DNA of 32,000 nucleotides from Nostoc punctiforme PCC 73102 (GCF_000020025.1 NC_010632.1:30001-62000); one strand, 5' to 3'; shown: positions 15,097 through 31,620, numbered from the stretch's first letter. Notes: generated from the sequence alone by a model not told the origin. Program-made: numbers and translations.

Positions 15097-15172
15097 CAAA
15101 CAGAATTAATTACATATTTATTCTTTGCTGGACAACAATTTCAACCTAGTTTTGTTGAATTAATTCTGTTTG
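15097..15172 (+). promoter_or_regulatory. Perfect 15-bp inverted repeat (stem-loop) between the two precursor genes
   Basis: CAAACAGAATTAATT (15097-15111) pairs with AATTAATTCTGTTTG (15158-15172) across a 46-nt loop. No U-tract follows. Confidence 0.5.
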
Positions 15173-15266
15173 GCGACTTGTACGCCACTTTCGTAAATCC
15201 TCTGAGCATCGAAATATCCATCTTTTGTGCTTATAAACCTCGTTTTTGAATCACTTAGGAGAAATC

Positions 15267-15500
15267 ATGTCTAATCCAAACGAAAATCAAAGCCCTAAAC
15301 AGGTAAGTGACTATATCGGAATTAATGAAAATGGGGAGTTAGTGGTTACAGATCCTAAATTAGCAGAGTCACTTCAAGAATTAAGTACTGAAGAACTTGA
15401 GCAGATTGCTGGTGGTGTCCTACCCACTAATGGTACTTGTACTAATAATGGATGTGGCAAAGCTGTACTAGAATCAGATGAATCAGCTTCTCTTCCGTAA
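15267..15500 (+). CDS. RiPP precursor peptide 2: 50-aa double-glycine leader + 27-aa core VLPTNGTCTNNGCGKAVLESDESASLP
   Basis: It has the same RBS (TAGGAGAAATC then ATG at 15267). The leader is identical to precursor 1 at 42 of 50 positions. The ORF-track TTG start at 15246 was rejected. Confidence 0.8.
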   Translation: MSNPNENQSPKQVSDYIGINENGELVVTDPKLAESLQELSTEELEQIAGGVLPTNGTCTNNGCGKAVLESDESASLP

Positions 15501-15577
15501 AAATTGCTAAACTAATACCAATTTTTCGCCAAATTCTAGTGTGTGTTAAGGACGATAAAGATTTAGTATTTCAGACT

Positions 15578-15640
15578 ATGATTAGCTCCACAGAATTAAG
15601 CGTTGATGAAGAAAAGTTGGTAGAGTTGTCTGTTAGATGA
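15578..15640 (+). other. 20-codon ORF resembling a decayed third leader (MISSTELSVDEEKLVELSVR)
   Basis: CACAGAATTAAGCGTTGATGAAGAAAAGTTG... resembles the CAAGAATTAAGTACTGAAGAACTTGAG... segment of precursor 2. Its TGA (15638-15640) is part of the terminator stem. Confidence 0.3.
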
Positions 15641-15690
15641 TCGCTACACTTGGTTAAATATCAAGTAAGATTGTGGCGATCACTTTTTTT
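15638..15690 (+). terminator. Rho-independent terminator/attenuator between the precursor genes and the radical SAM gene
   Basis: An 11-bp stem pairs TGATCGCTACA (15638-15648) with TGTGGCGATCA (15672-15682), including one G-U pair. The loop is 23 nt, followed by C plus T7 (15684-15690). Confidence 0.6.
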
Positions 15691-15755
15691 CAAATCATCT
15701 GGATTTTCTTCACGACAAATCAAGGAATATTTTTTGAAATTGAGAGTTTTTTATT

Positions 15756-16817: not shown

Positions 16818-16956
16818 CGAAAAATAGCATTTATAGTCAGAATTTATGCAACTGGCATATCTATCTTCTGTTAAAGAATCAATAGTCAAGGTTTTGTGGA
16901 ATCTTGACTTTTGACAATCTTAACTGAGGCGGCATAAATATATTGTTAAACAGAAA

Positions 16957-20632: not shown

Positions 20633-20689
20633 AGACGGTGAGCAGTAAATTACCATAAAACATTTAAAAATCTAAACCTAAAATCTAAA

Positions 20690-23581
20690 ATGCTAATACA
20701 GGGGCAAGTTTATATAGTTAATGGCAATGAACCGATTCTACTGGATGACCCTTCACGGGTGTGGATAATTCAGTCTGGCTCTATGGCTTTGTTTGCCATT
20801 ATAGTTAAAGATGGCTCTATTGAAGGGACACGCCGTTATCTGTGCAGTATTAGCCAAGGTGAAGCACTTTTCGGGACTGCTGATAAATTTGCTAATCAGT
20901 ATCGTCAGATTTTGGCAGTTCCAATTGGTGAGACTGAATTACTGCAAATACATAAGGAATGTTACTGCGAGTTAATAGCCAGTGAGGATGCTAAGGCGAT
21001 CGCCTGGATAGAAAATTGGTTATTACAAATTGGTGGTGTATTGTCCCAGATTACCATACCAGCAATTCATGTAAAAGCTGAGGGACAATCACGATTTTCC
21101 TTAAACAATGGTCAGACTTTTCAGCCAGAAGCAGGTGTCACCTGTTGGGTTCAACTTACTCAAGGCACTGTCCGCTTTCTGGGATTCGAGGAATTAATTT
21201 TAACCGCATCCACTACACCATTCCCTTTGACTGACAAAATGTGGCTAGAAGCAGTGGAAGGGGTGCAACTTACTACTAAGACTACTAGCGAATTCCAAAA
21301 TTCAGATATCCTTCTAGCTGGGTTATCTCAACTGCATACTCAATTGCTACAATGCCTTAACCTGTTAGATGAACGAGAACTACAGGCAGAGATGATACGG
21401 TTGCGCGATCGCCAACGCCTGAATCGTCAAGTTACAGCGCAAGCTATAGGCTCTTTAGCATCAACATTAAGTTCCCAAGATGGAGACTTTTTCAATGAAG
21501 GTACTCCTTTGTTGGTTGCTGCTGGAGCCGTAGGGAGAGCTATGGGTGTAGAGGTTCGCCCCCCGTCTCGTTCTGAAAACCTCAAGCGAGTTAAGGAGCC
21601 ATTAGAAGCAATTGTCCGGGCTTCACGTATCCGAATGCGGCGGGTACTATTGCGAGATAATTGGTGGGAGAAAGATTCTGGCCCCCTAGTTGCCTATACT
21701 CAGCAAGATAATCGACCAGTAGCACTGCTACCAATTAGTGCAACTCGTTATGAAATTTTTGACCCAGTTGAGCATACCCGTTTTCGAGTGGATGAGCATA
21801 TAGCTGCAACACTGGCTCCTGTTGCCTATATGTTTTATCGCTCTCTACCTGATAAAGTACTGCAAGCTGTTGATATATTGCGGTTCACACTTAAAGGACG
21901 TAGCCCAGAACTGCTAGTAATTTTGTTTACAGGTATCGCCGTCACATTACTAGGGATGCTTACACCTTATGCCACATCAATTATCATAGATAACGCAATT
22001 CCTGATAGCGACAAGGGATTATTGCTACAAATAGGATTGGGACTACTTGTTGCAGCTTTGGGAACAGGTGTATTTCAGCTAACTCAGGGATTTGCTCTGC
22101 TGCGAATTGAAACGGCTGGGGATGCTTCCACTCAGGCTGGTGTCTGGGATCGGCTGCTCTGTTTACCAGTATCCTTTTTCCGACAGTACACAACCGGAGA
22201 CATCTTCTCCCGCGTCTCATCTGTGAGTACGATCAGCCGACGAATCAGTGGGAGAACCCTAATTAATCTCCTTACCAGCCTGTTCGCACTGTTTTACTTA
22301 GGACAGTTATTTTATTACAACTATAAATTAGCTCTAATTGCAGTTGCATTTGCCATCGTTGCGATCGCAGTGACTACAGTCTCTGGTTTGCTATTGCTAT
22401 CTAAGGTACGTCCACTTTTGGAACTGCGAGGCAGTATTTTTGGGCAGACGGTGCAACTAATTAATGGCATTTCCAAATTGCATATTGCTGGGGCAGAAGA
22501 ACGTGCATTTGCAGCTTGGAGTAAAAACTATACTCGACAAATTAAGCTAGAGCTTAGTACACAAAGGGTTGAAGATGCTGTTGCGCTTTTTAATACAGTA
22601 ATGCCCATATTAACGAATGGTGTGCTTTTCTGGTTTACTATTAAGCTGCTAGAAAGCCCTCAAACTTCAGGAGTTATTGAAATATCTCTTGGAACTTTCC
22701 TCGCTTTCAATACAGCTTTTAGTAACTTTACTAAGGGAACCACAGATTTGAGCAATACAGTTACTGAAATTCTGCAAGTTCTTCCCCAATGGCAACGCAC
22801 CCAGCCTATTCTTTCGACTATACCAGAAGTGGATCTGTGCAAAGCTGATCCAGGCAAGCTGATTGGTAATATTTCTTTAGAACATATTACTTTCCGCTAC
22901 CGTAGTGATGGCCCTCTGACGCTGGATGATGTGAGTATTTCTGCTGCTCCAGGAGAGTTTATTGCCTTAATAGGTGGTTCTGGCAGTGGTAAATCGACGA
23001 TTCTACGATTGCTACTGGGATTTGAAACTCCAATTGCAGGTAGCATCTACTATGATGGTCAAGACTTATCTGGCTTAGATATAGATGCAGTCCGCCGGCA
23101 GTTGGGCGTTGTTTTACAAAATGGTCAGCTGAGTTCAGCTTCTATTTTCGAGAATATTGCAGGCGGCGCTCAGATTACTTTAGATGAAGCTTGGGAGGCG
23201 GCGCGGATGTCGGGATTCGCTGAGGATATCACCGCCATGCCAATGCAAATGCATACTGTCGTGAGTGAAGGAGGCGGTAATCTTTCTGGAGGACAACGAC
23301 AACGGTTGTTAATTGCTCGCGCTCTGGCATTAAAACCCCGGATCTTGCTATTTGATGAGGCTACCAGTGCGCTCGATAACAGAACCCAGGCGATTGTTAG
23401 TGAAAGTTTAGATAACTTACAAGTTACCAGAATTGCGATCGCTCACCGACTAAGCACTATCCGCAACGCTCACCGCATTTATGTACTCCAGGCAGGTCGA
23501 GTTGTACAACAAGGGACTTTTCAAGAGTTAGCTGCTGTTGAGGGGCTATTTGCCCAGTTAATGTCTAGGCAAATGGCGTAG
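20690..23581 (+). CDS. Second ABC exporter subunit with N-terminal cNMP-binding-like and Cys-less C39-like domains
   Basis: 963 aa. The N-terminal segment VWIIQSGSMALFAI...GEALFG is CNB-barrel-like. Residues ~270-400 resemble a C39-like domain, but no Cys is seen where the catalytic Cys would be expected (GTPLLVAAGAVGRAMG). The TMD is followed by an NBD with GGSGSGKST, LSGGQRQR, LLFDEATSALD and AHRLST. Confidence 0.9.
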   Translation: MLIQGQVYIVNGNEPILLDDPSRVWIIQSGSMALFAIIVKDGSIEGTRRYLCSISQGEALFGTADKFANQYRQILAVPIGETELLQIHKECYCELIASEDAKAIAWIENWLLQIGGVLSQITIPAIHVKAEGQSRFSLNNGQTFQPEAGVTCWVQLTQGTVRFLGFEELILTASTTPFPLTDKMWLEAVEGVQLTTKTTSEFQNSDILLAGLSQLHTQLLQCLNLLDERELQAEMIRLRDRQRLNRQVTAQAIGSLASTLSSQDGDFFNEGTPLLVAAGAVGRAMGVEVRPPSRSENLKRVKEPLEAIVRASRIRMRRVLLRDNWWEKDSGPLVAYTQQDNRPVALLPISATRYEIFDPVEHTRFRVDEHIAATLAPVAYMFYRSLPDKVLQAVDILRFTLKGRSPELLVILFTGIAVTLLGMLTPYATSIIIDNAIPDSDKGLLLQIGLGLLVAALGTGVFQLTQGFALLRIETAGDASTQAGVWDRLLCLPVSFFRQYTTGDIFSRVSSVSTISRRISGRTLINLLTSLFALFYLGQLFYYNYKLALIAVAFAIVAIAVTTVSGLLLLSKVRPLLELRGSIFGQTVQLINGISKLHIAGAEERAFAAWSKNYTRQIKLELSTQRVEDAVALFNTVMPILTNGVLFWFTIKLLESPQTSGVIEISLGTFLAFNTAFSNFTKGTTDLSNTVTEILQVLPQWQRTQPILSTIPEVDLCKADPGKLIGNISLEHITFRYRSDGPLTLDDVSISAAPGEFIALIGGSGSGKSTILRLLLGFETPIAGSIYYDGQDLSGLDIDAVRRQLGVVLQNGQLSSASIFENIAGGAQITLDEAWEAARMSGFAEDITAMPMQMHTVVSEGGGNLSGGQRQRLLIARALALKPRILLFDEATSALDNRTQAIVSESLDNLQVTRIAIAHRLSTIRNAHRIYVLQAGRVVQQGTFQELAAVEGLFAQLMSRQMA

Positions 23582-23640
23582 CTAACTGAGTTTTGTGGGA
23601 GAAAAGTTAGGCATGGAAAGTAGTTTTAATCCATCCCCTT

Positions 23641-23683
23641 AAAAAAAAAAGAGCATGGCTAGCTTTTTGCCAGTCACGCTCTT
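23641..23683 (-). terminator. Rho-independent terminator after the WGR gene (minus strand)
   Basis: On the minus strand the hairpin AAGAGC..TGGC / GCCA..GCTCTT (23649-23683) is followed by U10 (23641-23650). It begins 6 nt after the WGR stop. Confidence 0.6.
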
Positions 23684-23688: not shown

Positions 23689-24249
23689 TTATAAATGCCG
23701 CCAGAAGTTCTTACTGATAGTCTTAAGACTGACAACTGCCGTTTCTACTGTTGCTTCAGGGGCATGACTAACAGCAACCGCAACAGCAATTGGTGCAGGT
23801 GTCGCTAACAGAGAATTGAGTAATCCCATTTGATAATCAACATCTTCTACTGAGCGATATACCCTGTATAGTTCAATTTGCATACCCAAAGGTGTTGGGA
23901 CAATCTTCAGATATTGATTTAGGGCATTGATATAAGCAACTGAGAAATTTCTCTGCTCTACACAAGGACGAATAATCTCTAGTAATTCAATCGCTCTGTT
24001 GATTTCAGAAACTTCACAATTACTATCGATTTGTGACTGACTTCTTCTGTAGCCTTTCATCGTCTTTTCGGCTACCAGATTGTTGAATTTGCTAACGGCT
24101 CTTTGATGATTGCCTAATGGATGGACTTTGGTTTGAGCTTTATAACCGACTCTGCCCCACTGCACTGTTAAGTTACTATCTTCGACAATGGCCGCCCAGA
24201 ACTTATTGCTGTTCTGGATAGCATCAACAAAGACTAAATAGATTTCCAT
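23689..24249 (-). CDS. WGR-domain protein
   Basis: The N-terminus IYLVFVDAIQNSNKFWAAIVEDSNLTVQWGRVGYKAQTKVHPLGNHQRAVSKFNNLVAEKTMKGY is a clear WGR signature. The C-terminal ~100 aa are unassigned. Confidence 0.75.
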   Translation of the reverse strand: MEIYLVFVDAIQNSNKFWAAIVEDSNLTVQWGRVGYKAQTKVHPLGNHQRAVSKFNNLVAEKTMKGYRRSQSQIDSNCEVSEINRAIELLEIIRPCVEQRNFSVAYINALNQYLKIVPTPLGMQIELYRVYRSVEDVDYQMGLLNSLLATPAPIAVAVAVSHAPEATVETAVVSLKTISKNFWRHL

Positions 24250-24262
24250 GTTTCTTACCCTA

Positions 24263-24610
24263 TCAACTCACGACTTGACGGGCATTGCCCCATCGAATTT
24301 GATGCTGTAAAGCTTCAAGTAAGGTTTCAGCTTCCAGAGTTGTTAACCCATTTAGAACAGAGCAGACATCATGCAAATCCTCGGGAATAGAATCAGGAAT
24401 TACTAGCTCACATAAAGCATCTTCAAGGGCTGTAGAAACTGGATATTCAGTTGGGGTGTACTCCTGTTGCATAACAATGTATGTAGACAGAGTTACTCGT
24501 AATAACAGTTTTGTCTCTCTGTCTAACTTCTCTAAGTGTGCGCCGTAATTATCAACCAGTTGGTTAATCAAGTCTGTTTGTCCGTAGTATGTAACTAAAT
24601 CTGTCGTCAT
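24263..24610 (-). CDS. Hypothetical protein (115 aa)
   Basis: ATG ORF ending 13 nt upstream of the WGR gene. No family recognised. Confidence 0.5.
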   Translation of the reverse strand: MTTDLVTYYGQTDLINQLVDNYGAHLEKLDRETKLLLRVTLSTYIVMQQEYTPTEYPVSTALEDALCELVIPDSIPEDLHDVCSVLNGLTTLEAETLLEALQHQIRWGNARQVVS

Positions 24611-24654
24611 TTTCTTCGGTCTATATAATTGTTAAGAAACTGCTATCAATTACT

Positions 24655-24698
24655 AAAAAAAAGAGTGATTGCCCCCATAGAATCAGGAGGCAATTGCT
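24655..24698 (-). terminator. Possible partial intrinsic terminator after the AAA+ gene (minus strand)
   Basis: On the minus strand an imperfect hairpin (AGCAATTGCC...GGGGCAATCACT, 24664-24698) is followed by U8 (24655-24662). Confidence 0.4.
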
Positions 24699-24704
24699 TT
24701 CTCA

Positions 24705-26327
24705 TCAGTTCATATTCCGAAACTTAGCAGCACGCAAAGATTGAGTTTTCGCTGCAACCGCAGGACTACTAGCCCGTCGTGCAGTGGATGCCCAACTCTG
24801 CATCCGTTCCACCGCCGCAGCATCCTGAATCGCAAGCGGGGTAATGGTTTGACGACAGGTTTCGAGGTCAGCAAGTGTTACCTGCTGCGGTCTATCCTCA
24901 TCGAATGCCAGCAGAGCAGCTTCAGATGCTAGCGTTTCCAATTCAGCACCGGAAAATTTCGCGGTGGAAGCTGCGATCGCTTCAAGATATTCGGATTCCA
25001 GGTGAATGCCAAAACGTTGTAGATGAATCCCCAGAATCTGTACACGCTCAGGTTCTGTGGGCAAGTCAACAAAGAAATTTTCATCGAAGCGGCCTTTCCG
25101 TTTTAGCTCACTTGGCAGTGCAGAGGGGTCATTGCAAGTTGCCACGACAAACACACCACACTGTGATTCCGACATAAACGTGAGAATATTGCCCAGAATC
25201 CTCTGTGAGACTCCACTCGTGTCACCAGTTCCCGAAAGTGCTTTTTCTATTTCATCAATCCACAGGACGCAGGGTGCGATCGCTTCGGCAGTCTTTAAAG
25301 CCCGTCTGACATTCCCCTCAGACTCACCGACCAGACTGCCCAACAGGGATGCAATGTCTAGCTGTAGGAGAGGTAAATTCAGTATAGTTGCAATGTTTTT
25401 GGCACAGTTAGATTTTCCTGTTCCGGGTGGGCCAGCCAGCAATACACCCTTTGGTTGGGGTAAGCTAAGACTTCGCGCCTCGACAGTAAACAACCGTCGC
25501 CGACGAGTCAGCCATTCGCGCAATAAGTCAAGTCCGCCAAATGGTATGCTAGCTGGTTTACCCAACTCGATACCCATTTGAGACAGTAGCCGAGTTTTGT
25601 ACTCGACAGCTTTGGGAATGAAATCAGCATCAACGACGACACCATCATTAGTTAAGTTTTCTTTGACTGTTAAGCGAAGGAAATCACTAATTTCTTCTAA
25701 AGTTAAACCCAACGCTGCACGAGAAAGAGTTTCAAATTCAGCATTTTCTAGCGTAACAGTGAAAGTCAATTCTTGCTCTCTAGCAGACTGTTGTAGGTCA
25801 TGCAAATAGGAAGTGATATGCTCAAGTATTTGGTCAATACTAGGTAAAGGGACTTCACAATAAGGAATCAATCTGACTAGGGATTCGTGTAATTGTATGT
25901 TCTGACCCAACAAGACAATGCGTTTATCTGTGGGTTTTAACCGATGGTAAAGGTTTTTTACCTTGCTTAAAATCTCCCAACTCAATTGGGATGAGTTCTT
26001 AGTAATAAAAGGGTGAATGTCTCCAAGAATGAAAACTCCATGACCACTAAAATTAGCAATGTAGTCGAATACAAATAGTAGTGGATCGGACTGTAGAGGT
26101 CTTTTATACTCTGCAACTGGTTTAAACACCAGTCCACCATCTGCCGCAATCAGGCATTGCTCTAAGGTTGATACTCCCAGATTCCAGAAGAACACTGGAC
26201 ATGAGAGCTTGCTCGATGCCTCTGTAGTTAACCACTGAATGATAGTTGCTTCATCGGGGGACAGGACATCAACTGCGGCGATCGGGATTTGTGAATCGAG
26301 CGTGGAGAGGAGATTTGAGAGTTTCAT
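24705..26327 (-). CDS. Classic-clade AAA+ ATPase with a unique ~270-aa N-terminal domain
   Basis: Walker A GVLLAGPPGTGKS, Walker B CVLWIDEIEKA, and a second region of homology VVATCNDPSALPSELKRKGRFD. Confidence 0.9.
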   Translation of the reverse strand: MKLSNLLSTLDSQIPIAAVDVLSPDEATIIQWLTTEASSKLSCPVFFWNLGVSTLEQCLIAADGGLVFKPVAEYKRPLQSDPLLFVFDYIANFSGHGVFILGDIHPFITKNSSQLSWEILSKVKNLYHRLKPTDKRIVLLGQNIQLHESLVRLIPYCEVPLPSIDQILEHITSYLHDLQQSAREQELTFTVTLENAEFETLSRAALGLTLEEISDFLRLTVKENLTNDGVVVDADFIPKAVEYKTRLLSQMGIELGKPASIPFGGLDLLREWLTRRRRLFTVEARSLSLPQPKGVLLAGPPGTGKSNCAKNIATILNLPLLQLDIASLLGSLVGESEGNVRRALKTAEAIAPCVLWIDEIEKALSGTGDTSGVSQRILGNILTFMSESQCGVFVVATCNDPSALPSELKRKGRFDENFFVDLPTEPERVQILGIHLQRFGIHLESEYLEAIAASTAKFSGAELETLASEAALLAFDEDRPQQVTLADLETCRQTITPLAIQDAAAVERMQSWASTARRASSPAVAAKTQSLRAAKFRNMN

Positions 26328-26638
26328 TGTTTTTCAATTTGATAAGGAACTGGAGCTAATTCATCGTGAGTAGTAACAAGTTTCACGACTACTTCATAAA
26401 CTTCGGCATCGCCGTCGAAAACCTCTGCTGTATCGTTGTTCTCTTGGTAGGCGATGCCGAAGGCGGTAAACTACGCTGTTACTATGGCATTCAACAGCAC
26501 ACACAAACCTTCAGTATTCGGCTTGATGATCACGGAAAAAGCGTGTTTTCTGTTGTCCGTAAATGTGAACAAGTGGGTATTCTTTTGGTGGGTAGATAAA
26601 ATCTCTTGGGAGAACCACGACAATAAAGCAATTGGCAA
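26324..26638 (-). pseudogene. ~104-codon ORF interrupted by one in-frame TAG (26471-26473), filling the gap between the DUF2997-like and AAA+ genes
   Basis: Hand translation gives (TTG)PIALLSWFSQEILSTHQKNTHLFTFTDNRKHAFSVIIKPNTEGLCVLLNAIVTA*FTAFGIAYQENNDTAEVFDGDAEVYEVVVKLVTTHDELAPVPYQIEKQ*. AAGGAG lies 11 nt upstream of the TTG. The terminal TGA overlaps the AAA+ ATG (ATGA). The second half has no start codon of its own. Confidence 0.45.
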
Positions 26639-26661
26639 TAGTTGCAGTTCTCCTTTTCTTA

Positions 26662-26874
26662 TTACTGTCTGAGTCTGGTTTGGTAAGTTGAAGTTGTACG
26701 AAGCTGTTGGGTTTGGGCTTCGTCCTTAAACGTGCGATCGCTCTCGCTGACAACTCCAAGTGCTTCTTCAAATGGTTGCGTAGCCGATAAACAAGTCAAA
26801 CCCTTGAATCCCTCCGCCTCCACTCGAACTTCACCTGTAGCATTGTCAAAATGAATCAGTATTGAGCGTTCCAT
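26662..26874 (-). CDS. DUF2997-like small protein
   Basis: MERSILIHFDNATGEVRVEAEGFKGLTCLSATQPFEEALG fits the pattern I recall for DUF2997 (G-x-x-C...T...E-x-x-LG). It starts 2 nt after the upstream stop. Confidence 0.7.
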   Translation of the reverse strand: MERSILIHFDNATGEVRVEAEGFKGLTCLSATQPFEEALGVVSESDRTFKDEAQTQQLRTTSTYQTRLRQ

Positions 26875-26876
26875 AA

Positions 26877-27326
26877 TTATCTCCGTGCAAATTGTTTAAC
26901 TTCTTGGTGTCCAGCAAAGGTTAGGCGTAGGGTTTGCACAGTTCCTTTAGTTGATTCAGCAATCGCACATTCACCAAACCTTTCTTGCAACTCGGCAGCT
27001 TTAGCGCGAACCATTCGTTGTCCATAAGCCAGCATTAGTTTCTTGCTAAAAAAGTCTTGTCCCAATTTCGGAACTGTTTCATAACTGTCGTGTATTACGT
27101 CGTACACGCCGCTTGACTGATTCCACTTGAAACCGATGTCTGCACGGGCTTTTATGGTACGACCAGATACAATGATTTCAGCACTTTGCCCCTGAGAGCC
27201 ACCGTAGTATCCTTTTAGTGGCTGTGCTGTTTGGTGTACTTGCGGATTCAGTTTCAAATCTTGTAAAGCTTGTACCAGACATTCCCGGTTGGTGAGCTTG
27301 GTTTTAACGGTTGAGAAGTGTGACAT
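26877..27326 (-). CDS. DUF1257 (Ycf35-like) protein
   Basis: The N-terminus MSHFSTVKTKLTNRECLVQALQDLKL is the hallmark start of DUF1257/Ycf35 proteins. Confidence 0.75.
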   Translation of the reverse strand: MSHFSTVKTKLTNRECLVQALQDLKLNPQVHQTAQPLKGYYGGSQGQSAEIIVSGRTIKARADIGFKWNQSSGVYDVIHDSYETVPKLGQDFFSKKLMLAYGQRMVRAKAAELQERFGECAIAESTKGTVQTLRLTFAGHQEVKQFARR

Positions 27327-27401
27327 GAGAATTTTGTTCCTATAGTGGTAGAACTGCGGTATTCTTTGTGAGGTGTATATGCATTTTTCGTTTAAGGTAT
27401 T

Positions 27402-27442
27402 TAGTCTTGAGCGAATGCACCCTCGCCCAAGACTATTTTTTT
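27402..27442 (+). terminator. Plus-strand-oriented hairpin + T7 inside a minus-strand operon
   Basis: TAGTCTTGAGCG (27402-27413) pairs with CGCCCAAGACTA (27424-27435) with one mismatch, then T7 (27436-27442). The T7 overlaps the stop codon of the minus-strand 357-aa gene. Confidence 0.4.
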
Positions 27443-28514
27443 ACCTGAATTTAAACGACATCACAGTAGCCTTCGATAAGCCCACGTCCTCAGTCGCAAG
27501 TGATTGTAGATTGCGTTGTTCATCTAACAACTTGATGCGGATCTCTTGCATTTTTTGCTGCAATTGACTGCGCGTATCAGAACCCAGATTCTTAGACTCA
27601 ATCGCTGGATCGTTAACGATAGAATCCAAATGCGTCATCATCGCCTCTAAACTACTGCCAGCCTCTGAGTCAGCATTTGCTAGTAGTACCTGAACCTTCA
27701 TCAAATGGCGTTCCATCTTTTTCTTGAACTGAACAGGTTTGCGCCCTGGCTCCCAATCAGCCAACTCTTCAAGCAACTGCGCTGCCAGTTGTTCACCACC
27801 TGCTAGGGCTGATTCCCTTAGTCGCTGCTCCAGATTTTGGTCATACTGTTGAATGAACTTGGTAATCTGGTCTAAACACTCGGCTTGCTGCTGATTGAGT
27901 TGTTCAGAGAGGGCAGGGATAATCACCGGACGACCAATAACAACTTGCAAATAGTCTTCAAGATCGGTCAGAGTTGGGAATGCTCTTAACAAGTTGGCTT
28001 TAACTGACTCTTGCTTATCCTGTGCTAACTCCCAAGTATTAAGTGAGAGGAACTGGTCAATCCGCTCTTGATAATCAACAAGTCCTGCTTCGTAATCAGC
28101 TTTTAATTGATTGCGTAAACCAGGGGCAATATTATCTCTGATATTGATTAACTGATTCCAAACGAGTGGAGCTAAATCAATTGGACAAACCCAATCGCCA
28201 GTATCAGCAGACATCCACTCTTGAACTGAAGCAATCTCTTGCCTCAATTGGGCAGCAGCTTCATCCAATTTCTTAAATACCTTGATACCCCGCAAACCAA
28301 CTTCGGAATTAGTAACTTTAACAAGGTCTGATTCAATTTCAGAAACTTCAGCTTGTAGTACATCTGCCCATTTAGGAGCAGCCGATTTTGTACTTTTTTT
28401 TAACTGAATACGGAAGCGAATACGGGTTTTATTTAATTGTGAGAAATTGTGGCGCTCGACTACTGCATCAGTTAGGAAATTTGTAGCGATAGTGTTGTCG
28501 ATTGCTTGTACCAT
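27441..28514 (-). CDS. Hypothetical, largely alpha-helical/coiled-coil protein (357 aa)
   Basis: Long ATG ORF with E/Q/L-rich heptad-like stretches. No family recognised with confidence. Confidence 0.6.
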   Translation of the reverse strand: MVQAIDNTIATNFLTDAVVERHNFSQLNKTRIRFRIQLKKSTKSAAPKWADVLQAEVSEIESDLVKVTNSEVGLRGIKVFKKLDEAAAQLRQEIASVQEWMSADTGDWVCPIDLAPLVWNQLINIRDNIAPGLRNQLKADYEAGLVDYQERIDQFLSLNTWELAQDKQESVKANLLRAFPTLTDLEDYLQVVIGRPVIIPALSEQLNQQQAECLDQITKFIQQYDQNLEQRLRESALAGGEQLAAQLLEELADWEPGRKPVQFKKKMERHLMKVQVLLANADSEAGSSLEAMMTHLDSIVNDPAIESKNLGSDTRSQLQQKMQEIRIKLLDEQRNLQSLATEDVGLSKATVMSFKFR

Positions 28515-28532
28515 GATTATTTACCTCAATCA

Positions 28533-28679
28533 TTATTTTTCACTTTCGATTAAGCGAAGCTTTCTTTGTGGTGATTTCTCAAGAGAGCGAATGTCTGTAG
28601 TAGCCCTATAGATTACTTTTGTAGAGCTATTTTGTAGTCGAACAGGTCTTTTAATAACTGGTGGTTTATGTATGGACAT
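28533..28679 (-). CDS. Possible 48-aa basic small ORF
   Basis: MSIHKPPVIKRPVRLQNSSTKVIYRATTDIRSLEKSPQRKLRLIESEK. The ATG is 3 nt after the upstream stop, and the stop is 18 nt before the 357-aa ATG. The only support is tight packing. Confidence 0.25.
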   Translation of the reverse strand: MSIHKPPVIKRPVRLQNSSTKVIYRATTDIRSLEKSPQRKLRLIESEK

Positions 28680-28682
28680 GGC

Positions 28683-28952
28683 TTAAAATAGCTGAAGTTG
28701 CTGTGAATTATCCTGTACTGAGGGTTTTTTATAAACCATACCTTCGACTTCATAGCAACGAGTCATAAGTTTGTTTCGGTTTAGTCGAAAACTGGCTTGT
28801 TTCCTTTGATTAGGTAGAGGTGAAAACAGGAATTGTGGATGTTGAATAGTCCCTGCATCACCCAGATATCGACAAAGCGTACCGTTGATTTGGTAAACTT
28901 TTGATGAGCTTAACAGTGTCGCATCGTACACTTTAATCAAATTTGTTTCCAT
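28683..28952 (-). CDS. Hypothetical protein (89 aa)
   Basis: ATG ORF and first gene of the tightly packed minus-strand series. No family recognised. Confidence 0.45.
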   Translation of the reverse strand: METNLIKVYDATLLSSSKVYQINGTLCRYLGDAGTIQHPQFLFSPLPNQRKQASFRLNRNKLMTRCYEVEGMVYKKPSVQDNSQQLQLF

Positions 28953-29004: not shown

Positions 29005-29044
29005 CTCTACAGCCATGCTAGTTAAGCTTGGCTGTAGAGTTTTT
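29005..29044 (+). terminator. Plus-strand-oriented perfect hairpin + T5 in a minus-strand-only region
   Basis: CTCTACAGCCA (29005-29015) pairs with TGGCTGTAGAG (29029-29039) across a 13-nt loop, then T5 (29040-29044). Confidence 0.45.
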
Positions 29045-29102
29045 CACGCATCATGCAGCAACTTTTTCTTTGTTGGGTTTAGACAATCTAGAACCGCAGC
29101 AA

Positions 29103-29136
29103 GCAATTCGCAATTCGCAATTCGCAATTCGCAATT
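29103..29136. repeat. Heptamer tandem array (GCAATTC) x ~4.9
   Basis: A perfect array read directly from the sequence. It overlaps the stop codon of the four-helix-bundle gene. Confidence 0.9.
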
Positions 29137-29506
29137 AATTTAGCTTATTGATTTTGTCCTTGATTTTTCGAGTAGATGCAACTAGAATCTTTCCAACTTC
29201 CCTAGTTTCTTGAAGTAAGGTTTCAAACTTATTCTTTTCAACTAGTTCGGACTCTATTAGTATCTCTAGCCAATATTCTGTTTCTCTCTCCTCTTTAAGT
29301 GCAATTTCTAATTTACTAAGAAAATCTTTATCAGATTGGGCAGATTGGGCTTCTCGAACATTTGCACCTATAGAAGTAGCACTTCGGAGTAGCTGTTTTG
29401 ATAATGTTCGACAAACTCCAGGTTTTTCATCCAAGAAGGTACAAGCTTTAACTATTCTTATTGCCAAAGCTTTCGTTCTATCAGCAATACTAAACTGTTG
29501 ATTCAT
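29135..29506 (-). CDS. Four-helix-bundle protein of the 23S rRNA intervening-sequence protein (S23p/Avd-like) family
   Basis: ALAIRIVKACTFLDEKPGVCRTLSKQLLRSATSIGANVREAQSAQSDKDFLSKLEIALKEERETEYWLEIL is the typical family signature. The ATG at 29506 has a GGAG 9 nt upstream. The track start at 29572 reads through the heptamer array (NSQFAIRNSQF) and is unlikely. Confidence 0.8.
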   Translation of the reverse strand: MNQQFSIADRTKALAIRIVKACTFLDEKPGVCRTLSKQLLRSATSIGANVREAQSAQSDKDFLSKLEIALKEERETEYWLEILIESELVEKNKFETLLQETREVGKILVASTRKIKDKINKLN

Positions 29507-29518
29507 ACATTTAGCTCC

Positions 29519-29552
29519 AAATTGCGAATTGCGAATTGCGAATTGCGAATTG
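29519..29552. repeat. Heptamer tandem array (AATTGCG) x ~4.9, the inverted complement of the 29103-29136 array
   Basis: A perfect array read directly from the sequence, 13 nt upstream of the ATG at 29506. Confidence 0.9.
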
Positions 29553-29665
29553 TTTTGTACGTTGTCCAACATTAAACTTTGGAATTCCGTAGCCTCGTGG
29601 AAGTGTGATTGTTGGTTGCATTTTTCTTCCCTTCGCGTTAATTATTGATTGAAAGTGCTATTCGA

Positions 29666-29938
29666 TTACAGATAGAAATGCTCAAAAATCTGATTGAGTT
29701 TTTCTTTTAATTCATCAGTCAGAGCATTAAAATCAAACTCGTCTGATTCCCAAACTTCATCAATACTGGTAGACTCATCAATAATGTTTGCAATCAAACA
29801 AGATTCATTGTCATAGTTCCAGCCATTTGCTAAAAGCCACGGCAGAATTCCCTCAGATTGCAATAGTTTCTCAATATCGAATGAGTCAGAAAACTGCTGT
29901 AAATTTTCGATACTAGGGTGAACGATGGTTGTAGTCAT
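29666..29938 (-). CDS. Small, strongly acidic hypothetical protein (90 aa)
   Basis: ATG ORF, D/E-rich (e.g. IIDESTSIDEVWESDEFDFNALTDELKEKL). No family recognised. Confidence 0.45.
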   Translation of the reverse strand: MTTTIVHPSIENLQQFSDSFDIEKLLQSEGILPWLLANGWNYDNESCLIANIIDESTSIDEVWESDEFDFNALTDELKEKLNQIFEHFYL

Positions 29939-30037
29939 TTATTGTGATTGCTAGTAGTGAATACACAGCGCAGCAAGCTGTAGACAAAGCTTGAGCAACA
30001 TCTAATTACAGTTGCCCAAGCCCTATTTCCGATTTCG

Positions 30038-30592
30038 TTAAAACGCTATCTCATTCGCAGCTTTTGTTACAGCGATTGCTTGTTTACTGATTTCTCGCCA
30101 ATCGCTTTGCTCGTTGTAGGATGCCATTACTAACTCACTATTTACCCACACACGACAGAACAGCACACTTTCGTCAGTCGTTCCTGGCTGTGGCTGTAGC
30201 GTAATTGGAGAATACAACTGTTCTGGGGTCAAAGTTGCGATCGCTGCAAGTATGCACTTTGAGAAATGGGTATCGTAGCCTGATTCTAAGATATATGTCC
30301 GGTCTGCTTGAACAGTAATTAACAACTTGCAAGATTCTTTTTTACGCCGTTCTGTATTCTCGAACCGCAGTTCTTTAAGATACCCTGTTAAAGCAGTTTG
30401 GGGAATATCACTCGGTTCACCGTTTAATGTGTACCACAGCCCTCCATGCTGACGATTACAGTAGATTCTGCAATTGCCAGCTTCCGAGTGTAATCCCAAT
30501 TTCGGCTTATTGATTGCTGCAACCAACTGCTTGAGTAGCTCCTCTTGACGCATCAGGACAGCAAGTAATTCGGCATTTTCTTGAGGGGACAT
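30038..30592 (-). CDS. Hypothetical protein (184 aa)
   Basis: ATG ORF. No family recognised. Confidence 0.5.
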   Translation of the reverse strand: MSPQENAELLAVLMRQEELLKQLVAAINKPKLGLHSEAGNCRIYCNRQHGGLWYTLNGEPSDIPQTALTGYLKELRFENTERRKKESCKLLITVQADRTYILESGYDTHFSKCILAAIATLTPEQLYSPITLQPQPGTTDESVLFCRVWVNSELVMASYNEQSDWREISKQAIAVTKAANEIAF

Positions 30593-30726
30593 TGTTCAAT
30601 ACCAATACATTTCACTTTCGCATTGGCGAAGCCATTGCCTACAGATGTATCTATCAAGTGTAGAGCCAATAAAACAGCGCTCCTGTTGATACAAAAGCGC
30701 TTTATAAAACAGTTATTTGATTAAGA

Positions 30727-31620
30727 TTATCCGTGTGAATTAAATCTGACCAACAACTCTTCACGGGATAACTGAAGGCATAGCGGAGTAAATTCTTCTG
30801 GTGTTAACTGCAATAAACTATCGACTACTCTCGCTAATTCTTCATCCACAGAACCAAACCGGAATCTCAACAAGTTTTCTACAACTTGACGGCGTTCTTG
30901 TTGCACTCCTTGCTGTTTAGTAGTTTCTTCCCACTGCTGATAAGCTTGCGACAAATTCATAATTAATTCCTGCTCATCTTCCGTTAAAGTTTCTTGCTGT
31001 TGAACTATAATGACCCGCAAATTAGTAATCAGTTTGAGAGTATTCTGTCTTAATTGGTTGCTTTCGGGTAGTGCCAGCAATTCATCAATGGCAGTACGTT
31101 GCGTTTCGCCTCTACCCAAAATTCTCAGCCATAATGTTTCTTCTGTTACTGGTAGCTCGTTAACCGCTACTATTGCTGCCCTAAAACATTTCTGGAAAAA
31201 GTAAACTCCCCTGCTCCACTTTTCTAAATCTAGTTTAACCTCTAAATCCTCCAACAGAGAGGCGGAAGTACTGGGCGATATAATCCACAAACGAGCTAAA
31301 CTATCTTCTGGTAAGCTGGTTTTCTCTCGCTTGGCTTTGCGTTGTGAGTCTGCAATCACGGTGAACAGTTTCAGAAAACAGTTGCGTACCTCTGACCTAG
31401 TGGGTTGATTGCGAAATGGTTCCAAGAGTGCCGTATTTAGTACAGCGATTCTACCTAATAATCCAAGATTTTGAGCTTGGGCAGTTGGTGTGCTTGTAAA
31501 CAAAACGTCAACAAATCTGGCTTCATCAGTGACTTGTTTGTTAACTTCTACTCTACCTAAAGGAGACAACAACTCCTCTAATAATTCCTTAGAAAACTGA
31601 TCGTAAGGCTTGCTAGTCAT
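30727..31620 (-). CDS. Rpn/PD-(D/E)XK-like N-terminal region with a DUF4351-like C-terminus (cyanobacterial putative transposase/nuclease family)
   Basis: The N-terminus YDQFSKELLEELLSPLGRVEVNKQVTDEARFVDVLF and the C-terminus VENLLRFRFGSVDEELARVVDSLLQLTPEEFTPLCLQLSREELLVRF match patterns common in multi-copy cyanobacterial DUF4351 proteins (recalled from memory). Confidence 0.6.
   Translation of the reverse strand: MTSKPYDQFSKELLEELLSPLGRVEVNKQVTDEARFVDVLFTSTPTAQAQNLGLLGRIAVLNTALLEPFRNQPTRSEVRNCFLKLFTVIADSQRKAKREKTSLPEDSLARLWIISPSTSASLLEDLEVKLDLEKWSRGVYFFQKCFRAAIVAVNELPVTEETLWLRILGRGETQRTAIDELLALPESNQLRQNTLKLITNLRVIIVQQQETLTEDEQELIMNLSQAYQQWEETTKQQGVQQERRQVVENLLRFRFGSVDEELARVVDSLLQLTPEEFTPLCLQLSREELLVRFNSHG

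What the first reader, a model, noticed from the sequence alone, without database searches (positions are those of the whole stretch)
23689..28952. Tightly packed minus-strand operon combining DUF1257, DUF2997, an AAA+ ATPase and a WGR protein: candidate undescribed system
The gene order on the minus strand runs as follows.
- 89-aa ORF, then a 3-nt gap.
- 48-aa basic ORF, then an 18-nt gap.
- 357-aa coiled-coil protein, then a 114-nt spacer containing a hairpin.
- DUF1257-like gene, then a 2-nt gap.
- DUF2997-like gene, then a 23-nt gap.
- ~104-codon ORF, linked by an ATGA overlap to the next gene.
- AAA+ ATPase with a unique N-domain, followed by a weak terminator.
- 115-aa ORF, then a 13-nt gap.
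- WGR protein, followed by a strong terminator.
From memory, DUF1257/DUF2997/AAA+ genes co-occur in cyanobacteria, but I know of no assigned function. Here they are joined to a WGR module, which binds nucleic acid or ADP-ribose polymer in PARPs. They sit in a block of mobile-type genes. This suggests an ATP-driven nucleic-acid-sensing or conflict/maintenance system, which is inference only.
Basis: partly seen in the sequence, partly recalled or inferred. Interest (0 to 1): 0.7.

Follow-up and report, generated by a model that had tools for sequence, protein, structure and literature searches.

The report
Conserved cyanobacterial plasmid AAA+ operon
This is a real, strongly conserved and so far undescribed gene cluster carried on the large plasmids of Nostoc-type cyanobacteria. 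Its core is an ATP-driven protein-remodelling enzyme plus two small partners, the same three proteins also sit together in several phages, and this ties together two long-unexplained chloroplast and cyanobacterial genes (ycf35 and ycf46).

Summary
The operon is real and its coordinates are correct. The exception is the "~104-codon ORF", which here is a pseudogene of an accessory 85-aa gene.

**Architecture**
- The order 89aa, 48aa, 357aa helical protein, DUF1257, DUF2997, (85aa), AAA+, (115aa), WGR recurs in about 90 loci.
- These loci come from Nostoc and other cyanobacteria, mostly on plasmids, with several diverged copies per genome.
- All genes are under purifying selection (dN/dS 0.06-0.21).
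- The minimal core is helical protein, DUF1257, DUF2997 and AAA+, followed by a DNA-related partner: WGR, or Prim-Pol or DUF488 instead.

**Context**
- The block lies next to replication or partition genes: CyRepA1, DnaB, ParAB and PRTRC-like E1/E2/JAB genes.

**Relatives**
- No PADLOC system, Pfam or NCBIfam system model, Rfam family or paper in the searchable library matches it.
- The 357-aa protein has a DUF3150-like fold.
- AAA+, DUF1257 and DUF2997 also lie together in four proteobacterial phages.
- This makes them an old functional unit and links the Ycf46-named AAA+ family with Ycf35.

**Interpretation**
- My best reading (about 0.4) is a plasmid replication, establishment or maintenance module built on a protein remodeller that is directed to DNA.
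- Defence remains possible (about 0.2).
- Function is inferred, not shown.

The parts
28683..28952 (-). 89-aa gene (g89). It is the first gene of the tightly packed run and has no family match.
   Evidence: ORF. It sits at the same place in nearly all of the roughly 90 loci. dN/dS is 0.12. Pfam, PADLOC, NCBIfam and PHROGs give no hit.
28533..28679 (-). 48-aa basic small gene (g48). Other copies annotate it as a 62-aa protein.
   Evidence: ORF. It is conserved in position. dN/dS is 0.21 over 30 intact copies. It is annotated in L002 and L009.
27441..28514 (-). 357-aa helical protein (cc357). It marks the cyanobacterial module and has a DUF3150-like fold.
   Evidence: It has no Pfam or PDB sequence hit. 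The family is small: 121 clusters at 90% identity and 53 representatives at 50% identity among about 15 billion proteins. The AF2 model has pLDDT 72. That model matches phage DUF3150 proteins in BFVD at E 4e-6 to 6e-4 and nothing in PDB. dN/dS is 0.06.
27402..27435 (-). Conserved 12-14-bp stem-loop 8 nt after the cc357 stop codon. It has no U-tract on the sense strand; an A-run precedes it.
   Evidence: dG is -23 kcal/mol, z -6.1. It is present in almost all copies, and PCC 7120 has an unrelated hairpin sequence at the same place. RNAalifold predicts 12 pairs, 7 of them with changes on both sides.
26877..27326 (-). DUF1257 / Ycf35-family protein (149 aa). It starts with MSHF.
   Evidence: Pfam PF06868 scores 64 bits against a cut-off of 22. 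It matches phrog_20456 at 4e-11. M1, S2, H3, F4, D63, G65, F66 and W68 are invariant across distant modules. dN/dS is 0.11.
26662..26874 (-). DUF2997 protein (70 aa), with the G-F/Y-x-G-x-x-C motif.
   Evidence: Pfam PF11211 scores 44 bits against a cut-off of 24. It always follows DUF1257 by 2-5 nt in the module. Phage counterparts match at HMM E 1e-7 to 3e-13.
26324..26638 (-). Pseudogene of an accessory 85-aa gene (g85).
   Evidence: An in-frame TAG lies at 26471-26473. Compared with intact L004, L005 and L009 it has lost its ATG, has a +1 frameshift, and has an 18-nt insertion. The gene is intact in about a third of the loci examined (27 intact copies), with dN/dS 0.11. It is absent in A. 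cylindrica.
24705..26327 (-). Classical-clade AAA+ ATPase (540 aa). It has a roughly 270-aa N-domain of the type found in proteins that UniRef names Ycf46 and in phage AAA-ATPases.
   Evidence: PF00004 scores 107 bits, plus AAA_lid_3. The best NCBIfam hits are FtsH, Cdc48 and PAN. Walker A, Walker B, sensor-1 and KRKGRFDE are intact and conserved. phrog_8638 matches at 6e-98 over residues 90-536. Phage homologues cover 94-96% of its length. The N-domain has no PDB relative.
24655..24694 (-). Weak terminator-like hairpin after AAA: a 9-bp stem, then U8 after a 5-nt gap.
   Evidence: One search gives z -1.8, so it is not significant on its own.
24263..24610 (-). 115-aa accessory gene (g115). This slot is variable or replaceable.
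   Evidence: It has no family hit. Many copies lack it or carry a variant that is 62-67% identical. dN/dS is 0.21. In Leptolyngbya pLBX a Ycf34-family gene fills the slot.
23689..24249 (-). WGR protein (186 aa). It has a WGR domain (1-72), a conserved middle region (..YLKIVPTPLGM..), a variable Ala/Pro/Val linker, and a conserved C-terminal tail SLKTISKNFWRHL.
   Evidence: PF05406 scores 76 bits. The PDB hit 2ra8 matches only the WGR part. The alignment is and the tails. Prim-Pol replaces it in Symploca and DUF488 replaces it in L102.
23639..23683 (-). Intrinsic terminator that ends the operon: a 14-bp stem followed by U10.
   Evidence: Sequence. The fold gives -19.8 kcal/mol, z -2.5. The simple scan missed it because of an internal mismatch.
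29005..29039 (-). Conserved inverted repeat (CTCTACAG...CTGTAGAG) about 55 nt upstream of g89.
   Evidence: z -4.4. An equivalent repeat lies upstream of g89 in L005 (I6).
29666..31620 (-). Co-directional upstream backbone genes g90 (29666-29938), g184 (30038-30592) and g297 (30727-31620). They often, but not always, accompany the operon.
   Evidence: Synteny is shown. They have no family hits.

Best explanation
The operon is a backbone module of cyanobacterial plasmids, and of plasmid-like islands in chromosomes.

**Engine (inferred from family membership)**
- The engine is a three-part protein-remodelling unit.
- It consists of a hexameric classical AAA+ ATPase, of the type UniRef names Ycf46, and a DUF1257 (Ycf35-like) / DUF2997 pair.
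- The pair would act as the ATPase's adaptor, regulator or substrate.

**Cyanobacterial additions**
- The first is a DUF3150-like helical protein (cc357). It is probably made in excess, because a conserved stem-loop follows its stop codon.
- The second is a small DNA-directed partner at the 3' end, usually the WGR protein.
- I infer that the WGR protein recognises DNA ends, nicks or replication intermediates. I also infer that it docks to the machine through its conserved C-terminal tail.

**Proposed role (inference)**
- ATP-driven remodelling or unloading of a protein-DNA complex during plasmid replication, establishment or segregation.
- This role would benefit the replicon that carries the module.

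**Shown versus inferred**
- Shown: gene content, conservation, linkage, selection, intact catalytic motifs and genomic context.
- Inferred: every step of what the proteins do.
For: **Tight co-conservation**
- The order and spacing are the same in about 90 loci.
- dN/dS is 0.06-0.21 for every gene.
- The AAA+ catalytic motifs are intact.

**Plasmid-backbone behaviour**
- The operon is on 22 Nostoc plasmid records, and DUF1257 is on 38 cyanobacterial plasmid records.
- Most records carry one copy. Several plasmids of one strain each carry their own diverged copy (C052 x3, CCNUN1 x4-5, C057).
- There are several copies per draft genome.
- The module is independent of relaxase type and Rep type.

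**Neighbours are replication or partition genes**
- The CyRepA1-family rep gene lies 6 kb away, on the other arm of a divergently transcribed region, in pCC7120alpha.
- DnaB, BRO, an HTH regulator and MT-A70 sit on the divergent arm in pNPM1.
- ParA-ParB lie directly upstream in Symploca and upstream, separated from the module by one large GTPase gene, in Nodularia. They are adjacent in L093 and 8 kb away in A. cylindrica.
- PRTRC-like E2/JAB/ThiF genes are adjacent in L093 and lie 5-7 kb upstream in Leptolyngbya pLBX.

**The 3' partner is always DNA-related**
- It is WGR, Prim-Pol/PriCT_2 or DUF488.

**Some chromosomal copies are decayed**
- In the UHCC 0302 chromosome, AAA is truncated by an IS element and WGR is lost.
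- In the Nodularia chromosome, AAA is split by a frameshift.

**The three core genes are an old unit of mobile elements**
- Four proteobacterial phages carry AAA, then DUF1257-like (hhalign 94%, E 1e-7; two start with MSH), then DUF2997 (98%).

**No defence-system model matches**.
Against: - No function is demonstrated for any component.
- cc357, g89, g48 and g115 have no informative homologue.
- The proteins of co-resident copies are 85-97% identical. A replicon-specific partition or replication system would then be expected to cross-talk.
- No iteron-like or centromere-like repeats were found next to the operon.
- Complete, apparently intact copies also lie on Mb-size contigs, so the module is not strictly tied to autonomous plasmids.
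- These plasmids are rich in defence genes (BREX, DarT, Dpd, SAVED, AIPR within 10-20 kb). Context therefore cannot exclude defence.
- In phages the three core genes sit after the lysis cassette, which does not obviously fit a replication role.
- The DUF3150 link rests on a model of moderate confidence (pLDDT 72) and low TM-scores (0.22-0.35).
Confidence: 0.4

Rival explanations
1. It is an anti-phage or anti-plasmid conflict system. The WGR protein (or Prim-Pol or DUF488) senses invading or damaged nucleic acid. The AAA+ ATPase, with DUF1257/DUF2997 and cc357, then carries out an abortive or interference response.
For: - The module lies on mobile elements within 10-20 kb of BREX, DarT, Dpd, SAVED and AIPR genes.
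- The 3' sensor-like gene is swappable and the accessory slots vary, as in modular defence systems.
- The AAA core resembles IetA at 80 bits.
- Identity varies in a mosaic pattern between genes of one copy.
Against: - No PADLOC system matches. The IetA and TRIP13 hits cover only the generic AAA core, and no IetS, HORMA or cyclase partner is present.
- No recognisable toxic effector domain (nuclease, protease, pore or NADase) is present in the Nostoc core.
- Synteny with backbone genes is fixed, rather than the module moving between islands.
- The module is duplicated on every co-resident large plasmid.
- The proteins are very highly conserved (cc357 is 70% identical between genera), without the diversification typical of sensors.
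- The same three core genes are carried by phages themselves.
Confidence: 0.2
2. It is a host-physiology module. These would be plasmid-borne paralogues of the chromosomal Ycf46, Ycf35/DUF2997 (and Ycf34) proteins that tune the stress, carbon or clock-linked responses of the host. It would be a cargo function rather than a function serving the plasmid.
For: - DUF1257 is the Ycf35 family (PMC4284462, PMC13060386).
- UniRef names the AAA+ protein Ycf46.
- Ycf46 is described as KaiC-interacting and as a stress checkpoint (bioRxiv 10.1101/2025.07.21.665879).
- A Ycf34-family gene sits inside the Leptolyngbya module.
- DUF2997-DUF1257 pairs are common on marine viral contigs, as auxiliary genes would be.
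Against: - Cargo genes do not normally keep fixed synteny with rep and par regions across genera, nor recur once on each co-resident plasmid.
- The module always includes a DNA-related partner (WGR, Prim-Pol or DUF488).
- The three core genes occur in phages of non-photosynthetic Pseudomonas, Agrobacterium and Rhizobium and of Rhodobacter. The function therefore cannot be specific to oxygenic photosynthesis.
Confidence: 0.15
3. It is a remnant of a phage or phage-plasmid early region with no present function for the plasmid. It would persist through gene conversion among copies.
For: - The divergent arm carries BRO, HTH, MT-A70, DUF5131 and DnaB.
- PHROG families match three of the proteins.
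- One IMG/VR contig carries the module.
- cc357 resembles phage DUF3150 proteins.
Against: - Purifying selection acts on every gene across genera.
- Catalytic motifs are intact.
- A hairpin is maintained by compensatory substitutions.
- No structural or packaging genes lie nearby.
- Decay is seen only in some chromosomal copies.
Confidence: 0.07

Closest known systems
Ycf35 (DUF1257) with DUF2997, and Ycf46: conserved cyanobacterial and red-lineage plastid ORFs of unknown function
   Same: - The window's 149-aa protein is a Pfam DUF1257 member with the Ycf35 'MSH' N-terminus (PMC13060386).
- DUF2997 is the known neighbour of ycf35 in the cyanobacterial duf2997-ycf35-fed7 cluster (PMC4284462).
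- Sources name the AAA+ protein Ycf46.
   Different: - Here the three are fused into one operon with the reversed order DUF1257 then DUF2997.
- They are joined to cc357 and WGR.
- They are plasmid-borne and multi-copy, and no ferredoxin gene is present.
- Canonical pairs on the 80 viral contigs have no AAA+ nearby.
- Orthology of the AAA+ protein to a bona fide Ycf46 was not tested.
Phage 'AAA-ATPase' genes (PHROG 8638): Mycobacterium phage Corndog gp96, Rhodobacter phage RcKickapoo gp63, Pseudomonas phage SM1 gp026
   Same: - Homology is full-length and includes the N-domain.
- In RcKickapoo, SM1, Agrobacterium JP1 and Rhizobium P11VFA the gene is followed within 2 kb by a DUF1257-like and a DUF2997 gene.
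   Different: - The phage versions lack detectable cc357 and WGR homologues.
- They sit after the lysis cassette.
- Cluster O mycobacteriophages showed no DUF1257 or DUF2997 near the gene.
- None has been characterised.
PRTRC (ParB-related, ThiF-related cassette) of plasmids and ICEs
   Same: - Both are mobile-element cassettes of unknown function that sit with ParB (PMC3318190).
- PRTRC_B-, PRTRC_A- and ThiF-like genes lie directly upstream of the module in L093 and 5-7 kb upstream in Leptolyngbya pLBX.
   Different: - No PRTRC model hits any protein of the window.
- The module has no E1, E2 or JAB gene and occurs without PRTRC in Nostoc.
IetAS (AAA+ ATPase IetA plus protease IetS) anti-phage system
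   Same: The AAA+ core matches the IetA models at 80 bits in PADLOC and 76 bits in NCBIfam.
   Different: - The match covers only residues 288-474, the generic AAA fold, and is far below the NCBIfam cut-off of 510.
- No IetS-like protease is present.
- The partners are different.
DUF3150 proteins of phages and plasmids
   Same: The cc357 model aligns over its full length with DUF3150 phage proteins at Foldseek probability 1.0 and E down to 4e-6.
   Different: - No sequence-level Pfam match was found.
- TM-scores are only 0.22-0.35.
- DUF3150 itself has no known function.
WGR-containing proteins: PARP1-3, and bacterial WGR proteins such as B. fragilis 2ra8
   Same: The protein has a canonical WGR domain (76 bits; 2ra8 at E 2e-5; PARP3 WGR at E 0.1).
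   Different: - It has no PARP catalytic domain and none of the other PARP domains.
- The C-terminal half is specific to this family.

Membership tests
Pfam DUF1257 / Ycf35 | Match to PF06868 above the gathering score | tested here: met
   64.1 bits against a cut-off of 22.2, covering profile positions 1-103 of 103
Pfam DUF1257 / Ycf35 | Conserved N-terminal Met-Ser-His motif (described in PMC13060386) | tested here: met
   The protein starts MSHFSTVK. M1, S2, H3 and F4 are invariant in six distant module copies. Phage JP1 and P11VFA homologues also start MSH.
Pfam DUF2997 | Match to PF11211 above the gathering score, adjacent to a DUF1257 gene | tested here: met
   44.2 bits against a cut-off of 24.1. 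It lies 2 nt downstream of DUF1257.
Classical-clade AAA+ ATPase (FtsH/Cdc48/PAN/Vps4 type) | PF00004 plus AAA_lid_3; Walker A GxxGxGKS/T; Walker B hhhhDE; second region of homology with arginine fingers | tested here: met
   107 and 38 bits. GPPGTGKS, LWIDEIEK, ATCN and KRKGRFDE are conserved across nine distant homologues.
Ycf46 family | Orthology, including the N-domain, to plastid or cyanobacterial Ycf46 (e.g. Slr0374, Synpcc7942_0417) | not tested
   The only support is names given by UniRef and NCBI.
WGR domain proteins | Match to PF05406 above the gathering score | tested here: met
   75.9 bits against a cut-off of 22, residues 1-72
PARP-type ADP-ribosyl transferases | A PARP catalytic domain accompanying the WGR domain | tested here: not met
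   The 186-aa protein has only the WGR domain, and no protein of the operon hits a PARP domain.
IetAS defence system | IetA ATPase at equivalog score, plus an adjacent IetS protease | tested here: not met
   NCBIfam IteA scores 76 bits against a cut-off of 510. No protease lies in or next to the operon.
CBASS with TRIP13/HORMA | TRIP13-like ATPase with HORMA and cyclase genes | tested here: not met
   TRIP13 scores 27 bits over the AAA core only. No HORMA or CD-NTase hit was found.
PRTRC cassette | PRTRC A, B, C, D, E, F, ThiF and ParB family proteins | tested here: not met
   No PRTRC model hits any of the window proteins scanned. PRTRC-like genes are only neighbours in L093 and L179, and there they score below the curated cut-offs.
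DUF3150 (PF11348) | Sequence match to the Pfam model | tested here: not met
   No hit at E<=1 for the window protein, and DUF3150 is not among the 25 most frequently matched of the 69 families listed for the 45 family members scanned.
DUF3150 (PF11348) | Shared fold | tested here: inconclusive
ParABS / ParMRC partition systems | A Walker-type or actin-type NTPase, a centromere-binding protein, and repeated centromere sites | tested here: not met
   No ParA, ParB or ParM domain is in the operon. No repeat arrays flank it. ParAB occur only as neighbours in other loci.

The most novel reading that the evidence does not exclude
A Ycf46-type AAA+ ATPase, Ycf35 (DUF1257) and DUF2997 form one ancient three-protein remodelling machine, shared by plastids, cyanobacteria, phages and plasmids.

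On cyanobacterial plasmids this machine has been coupled to DNA through a DUF3150-like scaffold and a WGR, Prim-Pol or DUF488 adaptor. The result would be a previously unrecognised class of plasmid replication, establishment or maintenance system.

If so, it would give the first functional handle on ycf35 and ycf46.
Probability: 0.25. Interest if true: 0.8.

Novelty: categorically new. Interest (0 to 1): 0.62.

Why it matters
- **Plasmid biology.** Nostocales carry many co-resident megaplasmids, and how they are maintained is largely unknown. A module that recurs on most of them, next to rep and par genes, is a prime candidate for that biology and for building stable vectors.
- **Orphan genes.** ycf35 and ycf46 have been conserved 'hypothetical chloroplast reading frames' for decades. 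Their paralogues sit in one operon on plasmids, and the same AAA+/DUF1257/DUF2997 set sits together in cultured Pseudomonas, Rhodobacter, Agrobacterium and Rhizobium phages.
- **Testability.** The hypothesis that these proteins work together can therefore be tested directly in tractable systems: Anabaena PCC 7120 pCC7120alpha, and phages SM1 and RcKickapoo.
- **If it is defence.** It would be a system missed by current catalogues.

Tried and rejected
**Led nowhere**
- An exact look-up of the window's AAA+ protein on contigs found nothing on record.
- The AF2 model of DUF1257 failed (pLDDT 45), because the permitted alignment was only 76-95% identical. It was not used for fold search.
- A Foldseek search of cc357 against PDB gave only generic helical bundles.
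- The genome scan returned only close Nostoc relatives, because it keeps the best 80.
- Profile-against-PDB and Pfam searches of cc357 gave only weak RAD23, Vps4-MIT and H-NS hits, judged to be chance.
- There were no Rfam families or tRNAs, and no iteron-like repeats.

**Considered and rejected**
- The AAA+ N-domain as a degenerate second AAA domain. It looks that way by eye, but hhalign of the N- against the C-domain gives 2.8% probability.
- Phage genes next to the AAA-ATPase (Corndog gp95, RcKickapoo gp62 and gp64, SM1 gp027) as cc357 or WGR homologues. hhalign and HMM searches were negative.
- g85, g115 or the PCC 7120 77-aa gene as Ycf34-like. phmmer and Pfam were negative.
- The window's upstream genes as PRTRC-related. 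Searches were negative.
- JGI and UniRef names for cc357 (CdvB/ESCRT-III, 'actin-related protein'). They are inconsistent between members and unsupported by any search.

Full report
**1. The observation**

The Pfam assignments hold:
- DUF1257: 64 bits.
- DUF2997: 44 bits.
- AAA: 107 bits, plus AAA_lid_3.
- WGR: 76 bits.
- The 89-, 48-, 357- and 115-aa products match nothing in Pfam, PADLOC or NCBIfam; the 89-, 357- and 115-aa products also match nothing in PHROGs.

The RNA or DNA elements are as follows:
- The terminator after WGR is a 14-bp stem followed by U10.
- The element after AAA is a weaker 9-bp stem with a displaced U8 run.
- The hairpin in the 114-nt spacer is strong: -23 kcal/mol, z -6.1.

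One item is wrong. The '~104-codon ORF' has an in-frame TAG at 26471-26473. Aligned with intact 85-aa homologues it has also lost its start codon, has a +1 frameshift, and carries an 18-nt insertion that holds the TAG. In this window it is a pseudogene of an accessory gene.

**2. Origin and recurrence**

The AAA+ protein is 100% identical to a Nostoc punctiforme protein whose contig is 254,918 bp long. From memory, that is the size of plasmid pNPUN02 of strain PCC 73102.

- The whole 5.3-kb operon is found at 78-89% DNA identity on 22 Nostoc plasmid records. Most records carry one copy, and several plasmids of one strain each carry their own copy.
- DUF1257 alone finds 38 cyanobacterial plasmid records. 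These include pCC7120alpha, Trichormus variabilis, Anabaena cylindrica, Aulosira, Sphaerospermopsis, 'Nostoc azollae', Halotia and Leptolyngbya.
- A scan of one genome per species returned 172 relatives of the 357-aa protein. The best 80 were all Nostoc-like, with up to four contigs per genome.
- Across these loci the order g89, g48, cc357, DUF1257, DUF2997, (g85), AAA, (g115), WGR and its spacing do not vary wherever the contig is long enough.
- g85 is intact in about a third of the loci examined (27 intact copies), and g115 is absent or replaced in many.
- Median pairwise dN/dS is 0.06-0.21 for every gene.

This is a real, selected functional unit.

**3. The core and its variants**

A. cylindrica pANACY.02 carries only cc358, DUF1257, DUF2997, AAA and WGR. 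More distant versions are:

| Source | Gene order |
|---|---|
| Symploca | ParA, ParB, cc381, DUF1257, DUF2997, AAA, Prim-Pol/PriCT_2 (no WGR) |
| Genome GCA_000331305.1 (L092; organism not determined here) | cc347, two small genes, DUF1257, DUF2997, AAA, WGR, Amidoligase_2 |
| Metagenomic plasmid-like contigs (L093-L095) | PRTRC_B-, PRTRC_A- and ThiF-like genes, 155 aa, cc374, DUF1257, DUF2997, AAA, WGR; ParB and ParA on the other strand |
| Leptolyngbya boryana pLBX | cc418, RRXRR, DUF1257, DUF2997, AAA, Ycf34, WGR; E2/JAB/ThiF-like genes, holA and a sigma factor upstream |
| A 97-kb IMG/VR contig (L102) | cc429, DUF1257, DUF2997, AAA, DUF488 |

- The constant part is therefore cc, DUF1257, DUF2997 and AAA.
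- The 3' partner varies but is always nucleic-acid related.
- The cc family is tiny. It has 121 clusters at 90% identity and 53 representatives at 50% identity among about 15 billion proteins.
- Its only named distant member is from Waterburya, a cyanobacterium.

**4. Context**

- In pCC7120alpha the block is transcribed divergently from an arm that holds an HTH regulator and the CyRepA1-family replication gene, 6 kb away.
- In pNPM1 and pNe_5 the divergent arm holds HTH, BRO, MT-A70, DUF5131 and DnaB.
- ParAB are adjacent or near in four of the non-Nostoc contexts.
- The relaxase and Rep types of the host plasmids differ.
- Two chromosomal copies examined are decayed. In UHCC 0302, AAA is truncated by an IS element. 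In Nodularia spumigena, AAA is split by a frameshift.
- A complete copy with its backbone neighbours also lies on an 8.3-Mb contig, so the block is not confined to plasmids.
- Defence genes (BREX, DarT, Dpd, SAVED, AIPR) are common within 10-20 kb. They are not in fixed positions.

**5. The proteins**

*AAA+*
- It belongs to the classical clade. The best full-family hits are FtsH, Cdc48 and PAN.
- Walker A, Walker B, sensor-1 and arginine-finger motifs are conserved across nine distant homologues.
- Its N-domain of about 270 aa is not unique. PHROG 8638 matches residues 90-536 at E 6e-98.
- Phage AAA-ATPases (RcKickapoo, and cluster O mycobacteriophages such as Corndog gp96) align over 94-96% of its length.
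- The N-domain has no relative of solved structure.
- A degenerate-AAA interpretation of the N-domain is not supported by hhalign.

*cc357*
- The model is mostly helical (pLDDT 72).
- It finds nothing meaningful in PDB.
- It aligns over its full length with phage DUF3150 proteins in BFVD. There are eight hits at E<=1e-3 and probability 1.0, with TM-scores of 0.22-0.35.

*WGR protein*
- It has the WGR domain, a conserved middle segment, a variable Ala/Pro/Val linker and a conserved C-terminal tail.
- Similar basic-aromatic tails end the AAA+, cc357 and DUF1257 proteins.
- All of these tails are replaced by acidic tails in the WGR-less Symploca module. This hints at a shared docking site and is not evidence for one.

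*DUF1257*
- The model failed (pLDDT 45).

**6. The three core genes beyond cyanobacteria**

- DUF1257 is the Ycf35 family and DUF2997 is its known neighbour (PMC4284462, PMC13060386).
- At least 454 IMG/VR contigs encode DUF1257. Of the best 80, 70 carry an overlapping DUF2997-then-DUF1257 pair with no AAA+ nearby.
- Four cultured siphophages of Rhodobacter, Pseudomonas, Agrobacterium and Rhizobium behave differently. In each, the AAA+ gene (UniRef's 'Ycf46' type) lies just after the lysis cassette.
- Within 2 kb it is followed by a 126-167-aa protein and then a 65-72-aa protein.
- The small protein is DUF2997: HMM E 1e-7 to 3e-13, Pfam 26 bits for RcKickapoo gp67, hhalign 98%.
- The larger protein aligns with the DUF1257 profile at 94% probability, E 1e-7. 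In two of the phages it starts with MSH.
- AAA+, DUF1257 and DUF2997 are therefore a linked unit in phages of non-cyanobacterial hosts as well. This is the strongest evidence that they work together.

**7. The conserved hairpin**

- The stem-loop 8 nt after the cc357 stop codon is kept in nearly all copies.
- Seven of its 12 pairs show compensatory double changes. PCC 7120 has an unrelated hairpin sequence at the same position.
- It lacks a downstream U-run and has an upstream A-run. On the operon strand it could act as a stabiliser or attenuator that sets a high cc357-to-downstream ratio. On the opposite strand it reads as an intrinsic terminator.
- The inverted repeat upstream of g89 has the same polarity.

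**8. Interpretation**

- Shown: a conserved, selected, mobile-element-borne operon with an active-looking AAA+ ATPase. Its partners are Ycf35-like and DUF2997 proteins, a DUF3150-like helical protein and a DNA-related adaptor. It is embedded in plasmid replication and partition regions.
- Inferred: the AAA+ protein remodels a protein or protein-DNA complex, with the DUF1257/DUF2997 pair as adaptor or client and the WGR protein giving DNA targeting. This would serve plasmid replication, establishment or maintenance (confidence about 0.4).
- Defence (about 0.2), host-physiology cargo (about 0.15) and a phage remnant (about 0.07) remain open.
- The main arguments against a replicon-specific role are the high identity between co-resident copies and the absence of nearby repeats.
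- The main arguments against defence are the fixed backbone synteny, the lack of any effector domain or catalogue match, and carriage of the three core genes by phages themselves.

**9. Novelty**

- Nothing in the searchable literature describes this cluster.
- The component families are all 'unknown function'.
- It cannot be filed under any characterised kind of system, so I rate it categorically new. The caveat is that its function is unproven, and comparative-genomics papers outside the searchable library may mention the association.

Noticed in passing
window 29101-29572: A four-helix-bundle gene of the 23S-rRNA-intervening-sequence protein family (29135-29572, minus strand) is bracketed by inverted arrays of the heptamer GCAATTC at 29101-29136 and 29520-29555. 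At this spot it is present in only 4 of about 90 copies of the block, so it looks like a small insertion.
   Followed up: partly
L096-L175 (IMG/VR contigs): At least 454 viral-database contigs encode DUF1257. Of the best 80, 70 carry an overlapping DUF2997-then-DUF1257 pair. This is the canonical order, opposite to the plasmid module, and no AAA+ lies in the flanks. Whether these contigs are true cyanophages or misfiled picocyanobacterial fragments was not checked.
   Followed up: partly
L007 4935-8642; L182 4623-8482; L183 4458-8084; L184 4458-7777: Four cultured proteobacterial siphophages (RcKickapoo, SM1, JP1, P11VFA) share a syntenic run: lysis cassette, an AAA+ gene of the type UniRef names Ycf46, a 200-240-aa protein with a basic C-terminus, then a DUF1257-like gene and a DUF2997 gene.
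   Followed up: yes
window 27402-27435 and 29005-29039: Both conserved hairpins have their A-run on the 5' side in the sense of the operon. Read on the opposite (+) strand, they look like canonical intrinsic terminators, yet no + strand gene is evident there.
   Followed up: partly
window 23689-23730, 24705-24740, 27441-27470, 26877-26890 (C-termini of WGR, AAA, cc357, DUF1257): Conserved basic-aromatic C-terminal tails follow variable linkers: SLKTISKNFWRHL, SLRAAKFRNMN, ATVMSFKFR and QFARR. In the WGR-less Symploca module all four tails are acidic instead, which may be co-variation around a common docking site.
   Followed up: partly
L179 22135-22344: In Leptolyngbya boryana pLBX a Ycf34-family gene (Pfam 88 bits) sits between AAA and WGR. 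This makes a third 'ycf' family recruited to the module. A macro-domain gene lies 3 kb upstream on the other strand.
   Followed up: partly
window 26401-26462: The 18-nt insertion that introduces the TAG into the g85 pseudogene creates a perfect 13-nt inverted repeat (CTTCGGCATCGCC / GGCGATGCCGAAG) with the downstream sequence.
   Followed up: no
window 727-3357 (-): An 876-aa protein combines CHAT (caspase-like), AAA_16/NB-ARC and GUN4 domains. It is followed by a 110-aa ORF, and an ISL3 transposase fragment lies at 79-750.
   Followed up: no
window 9613-23581 (+): A co-directional cluster holds a ParA/MinD-like ATPase, DUF7005, a protein with cNMP-binding domain matches, a radical SAM enzyme, HlyD and two ABC exporters (one with a C39 peptidase). 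It is probably a modified-peptide export locus. It converges on the operon's terminator.
   Followed up: no
window 13140-14200: A MazF/PemK-like toxin gene (+) and a PIN-domain gene (-) lie tail to tail.
   Followed up: no
L093 5101-8768; L179 10661-12819: PRTRC-like E2 (PRTRC_B), JAB (PRTRC_A) and ThiF genes lie next to the module in two unrelated cyanobacterial replicons. No ubiquitin-like PRTRC_C gene was seen there. Whether DUF2997 could fill that role was not tested beyond a negative NCBIfam scan.
   Followed up: partly
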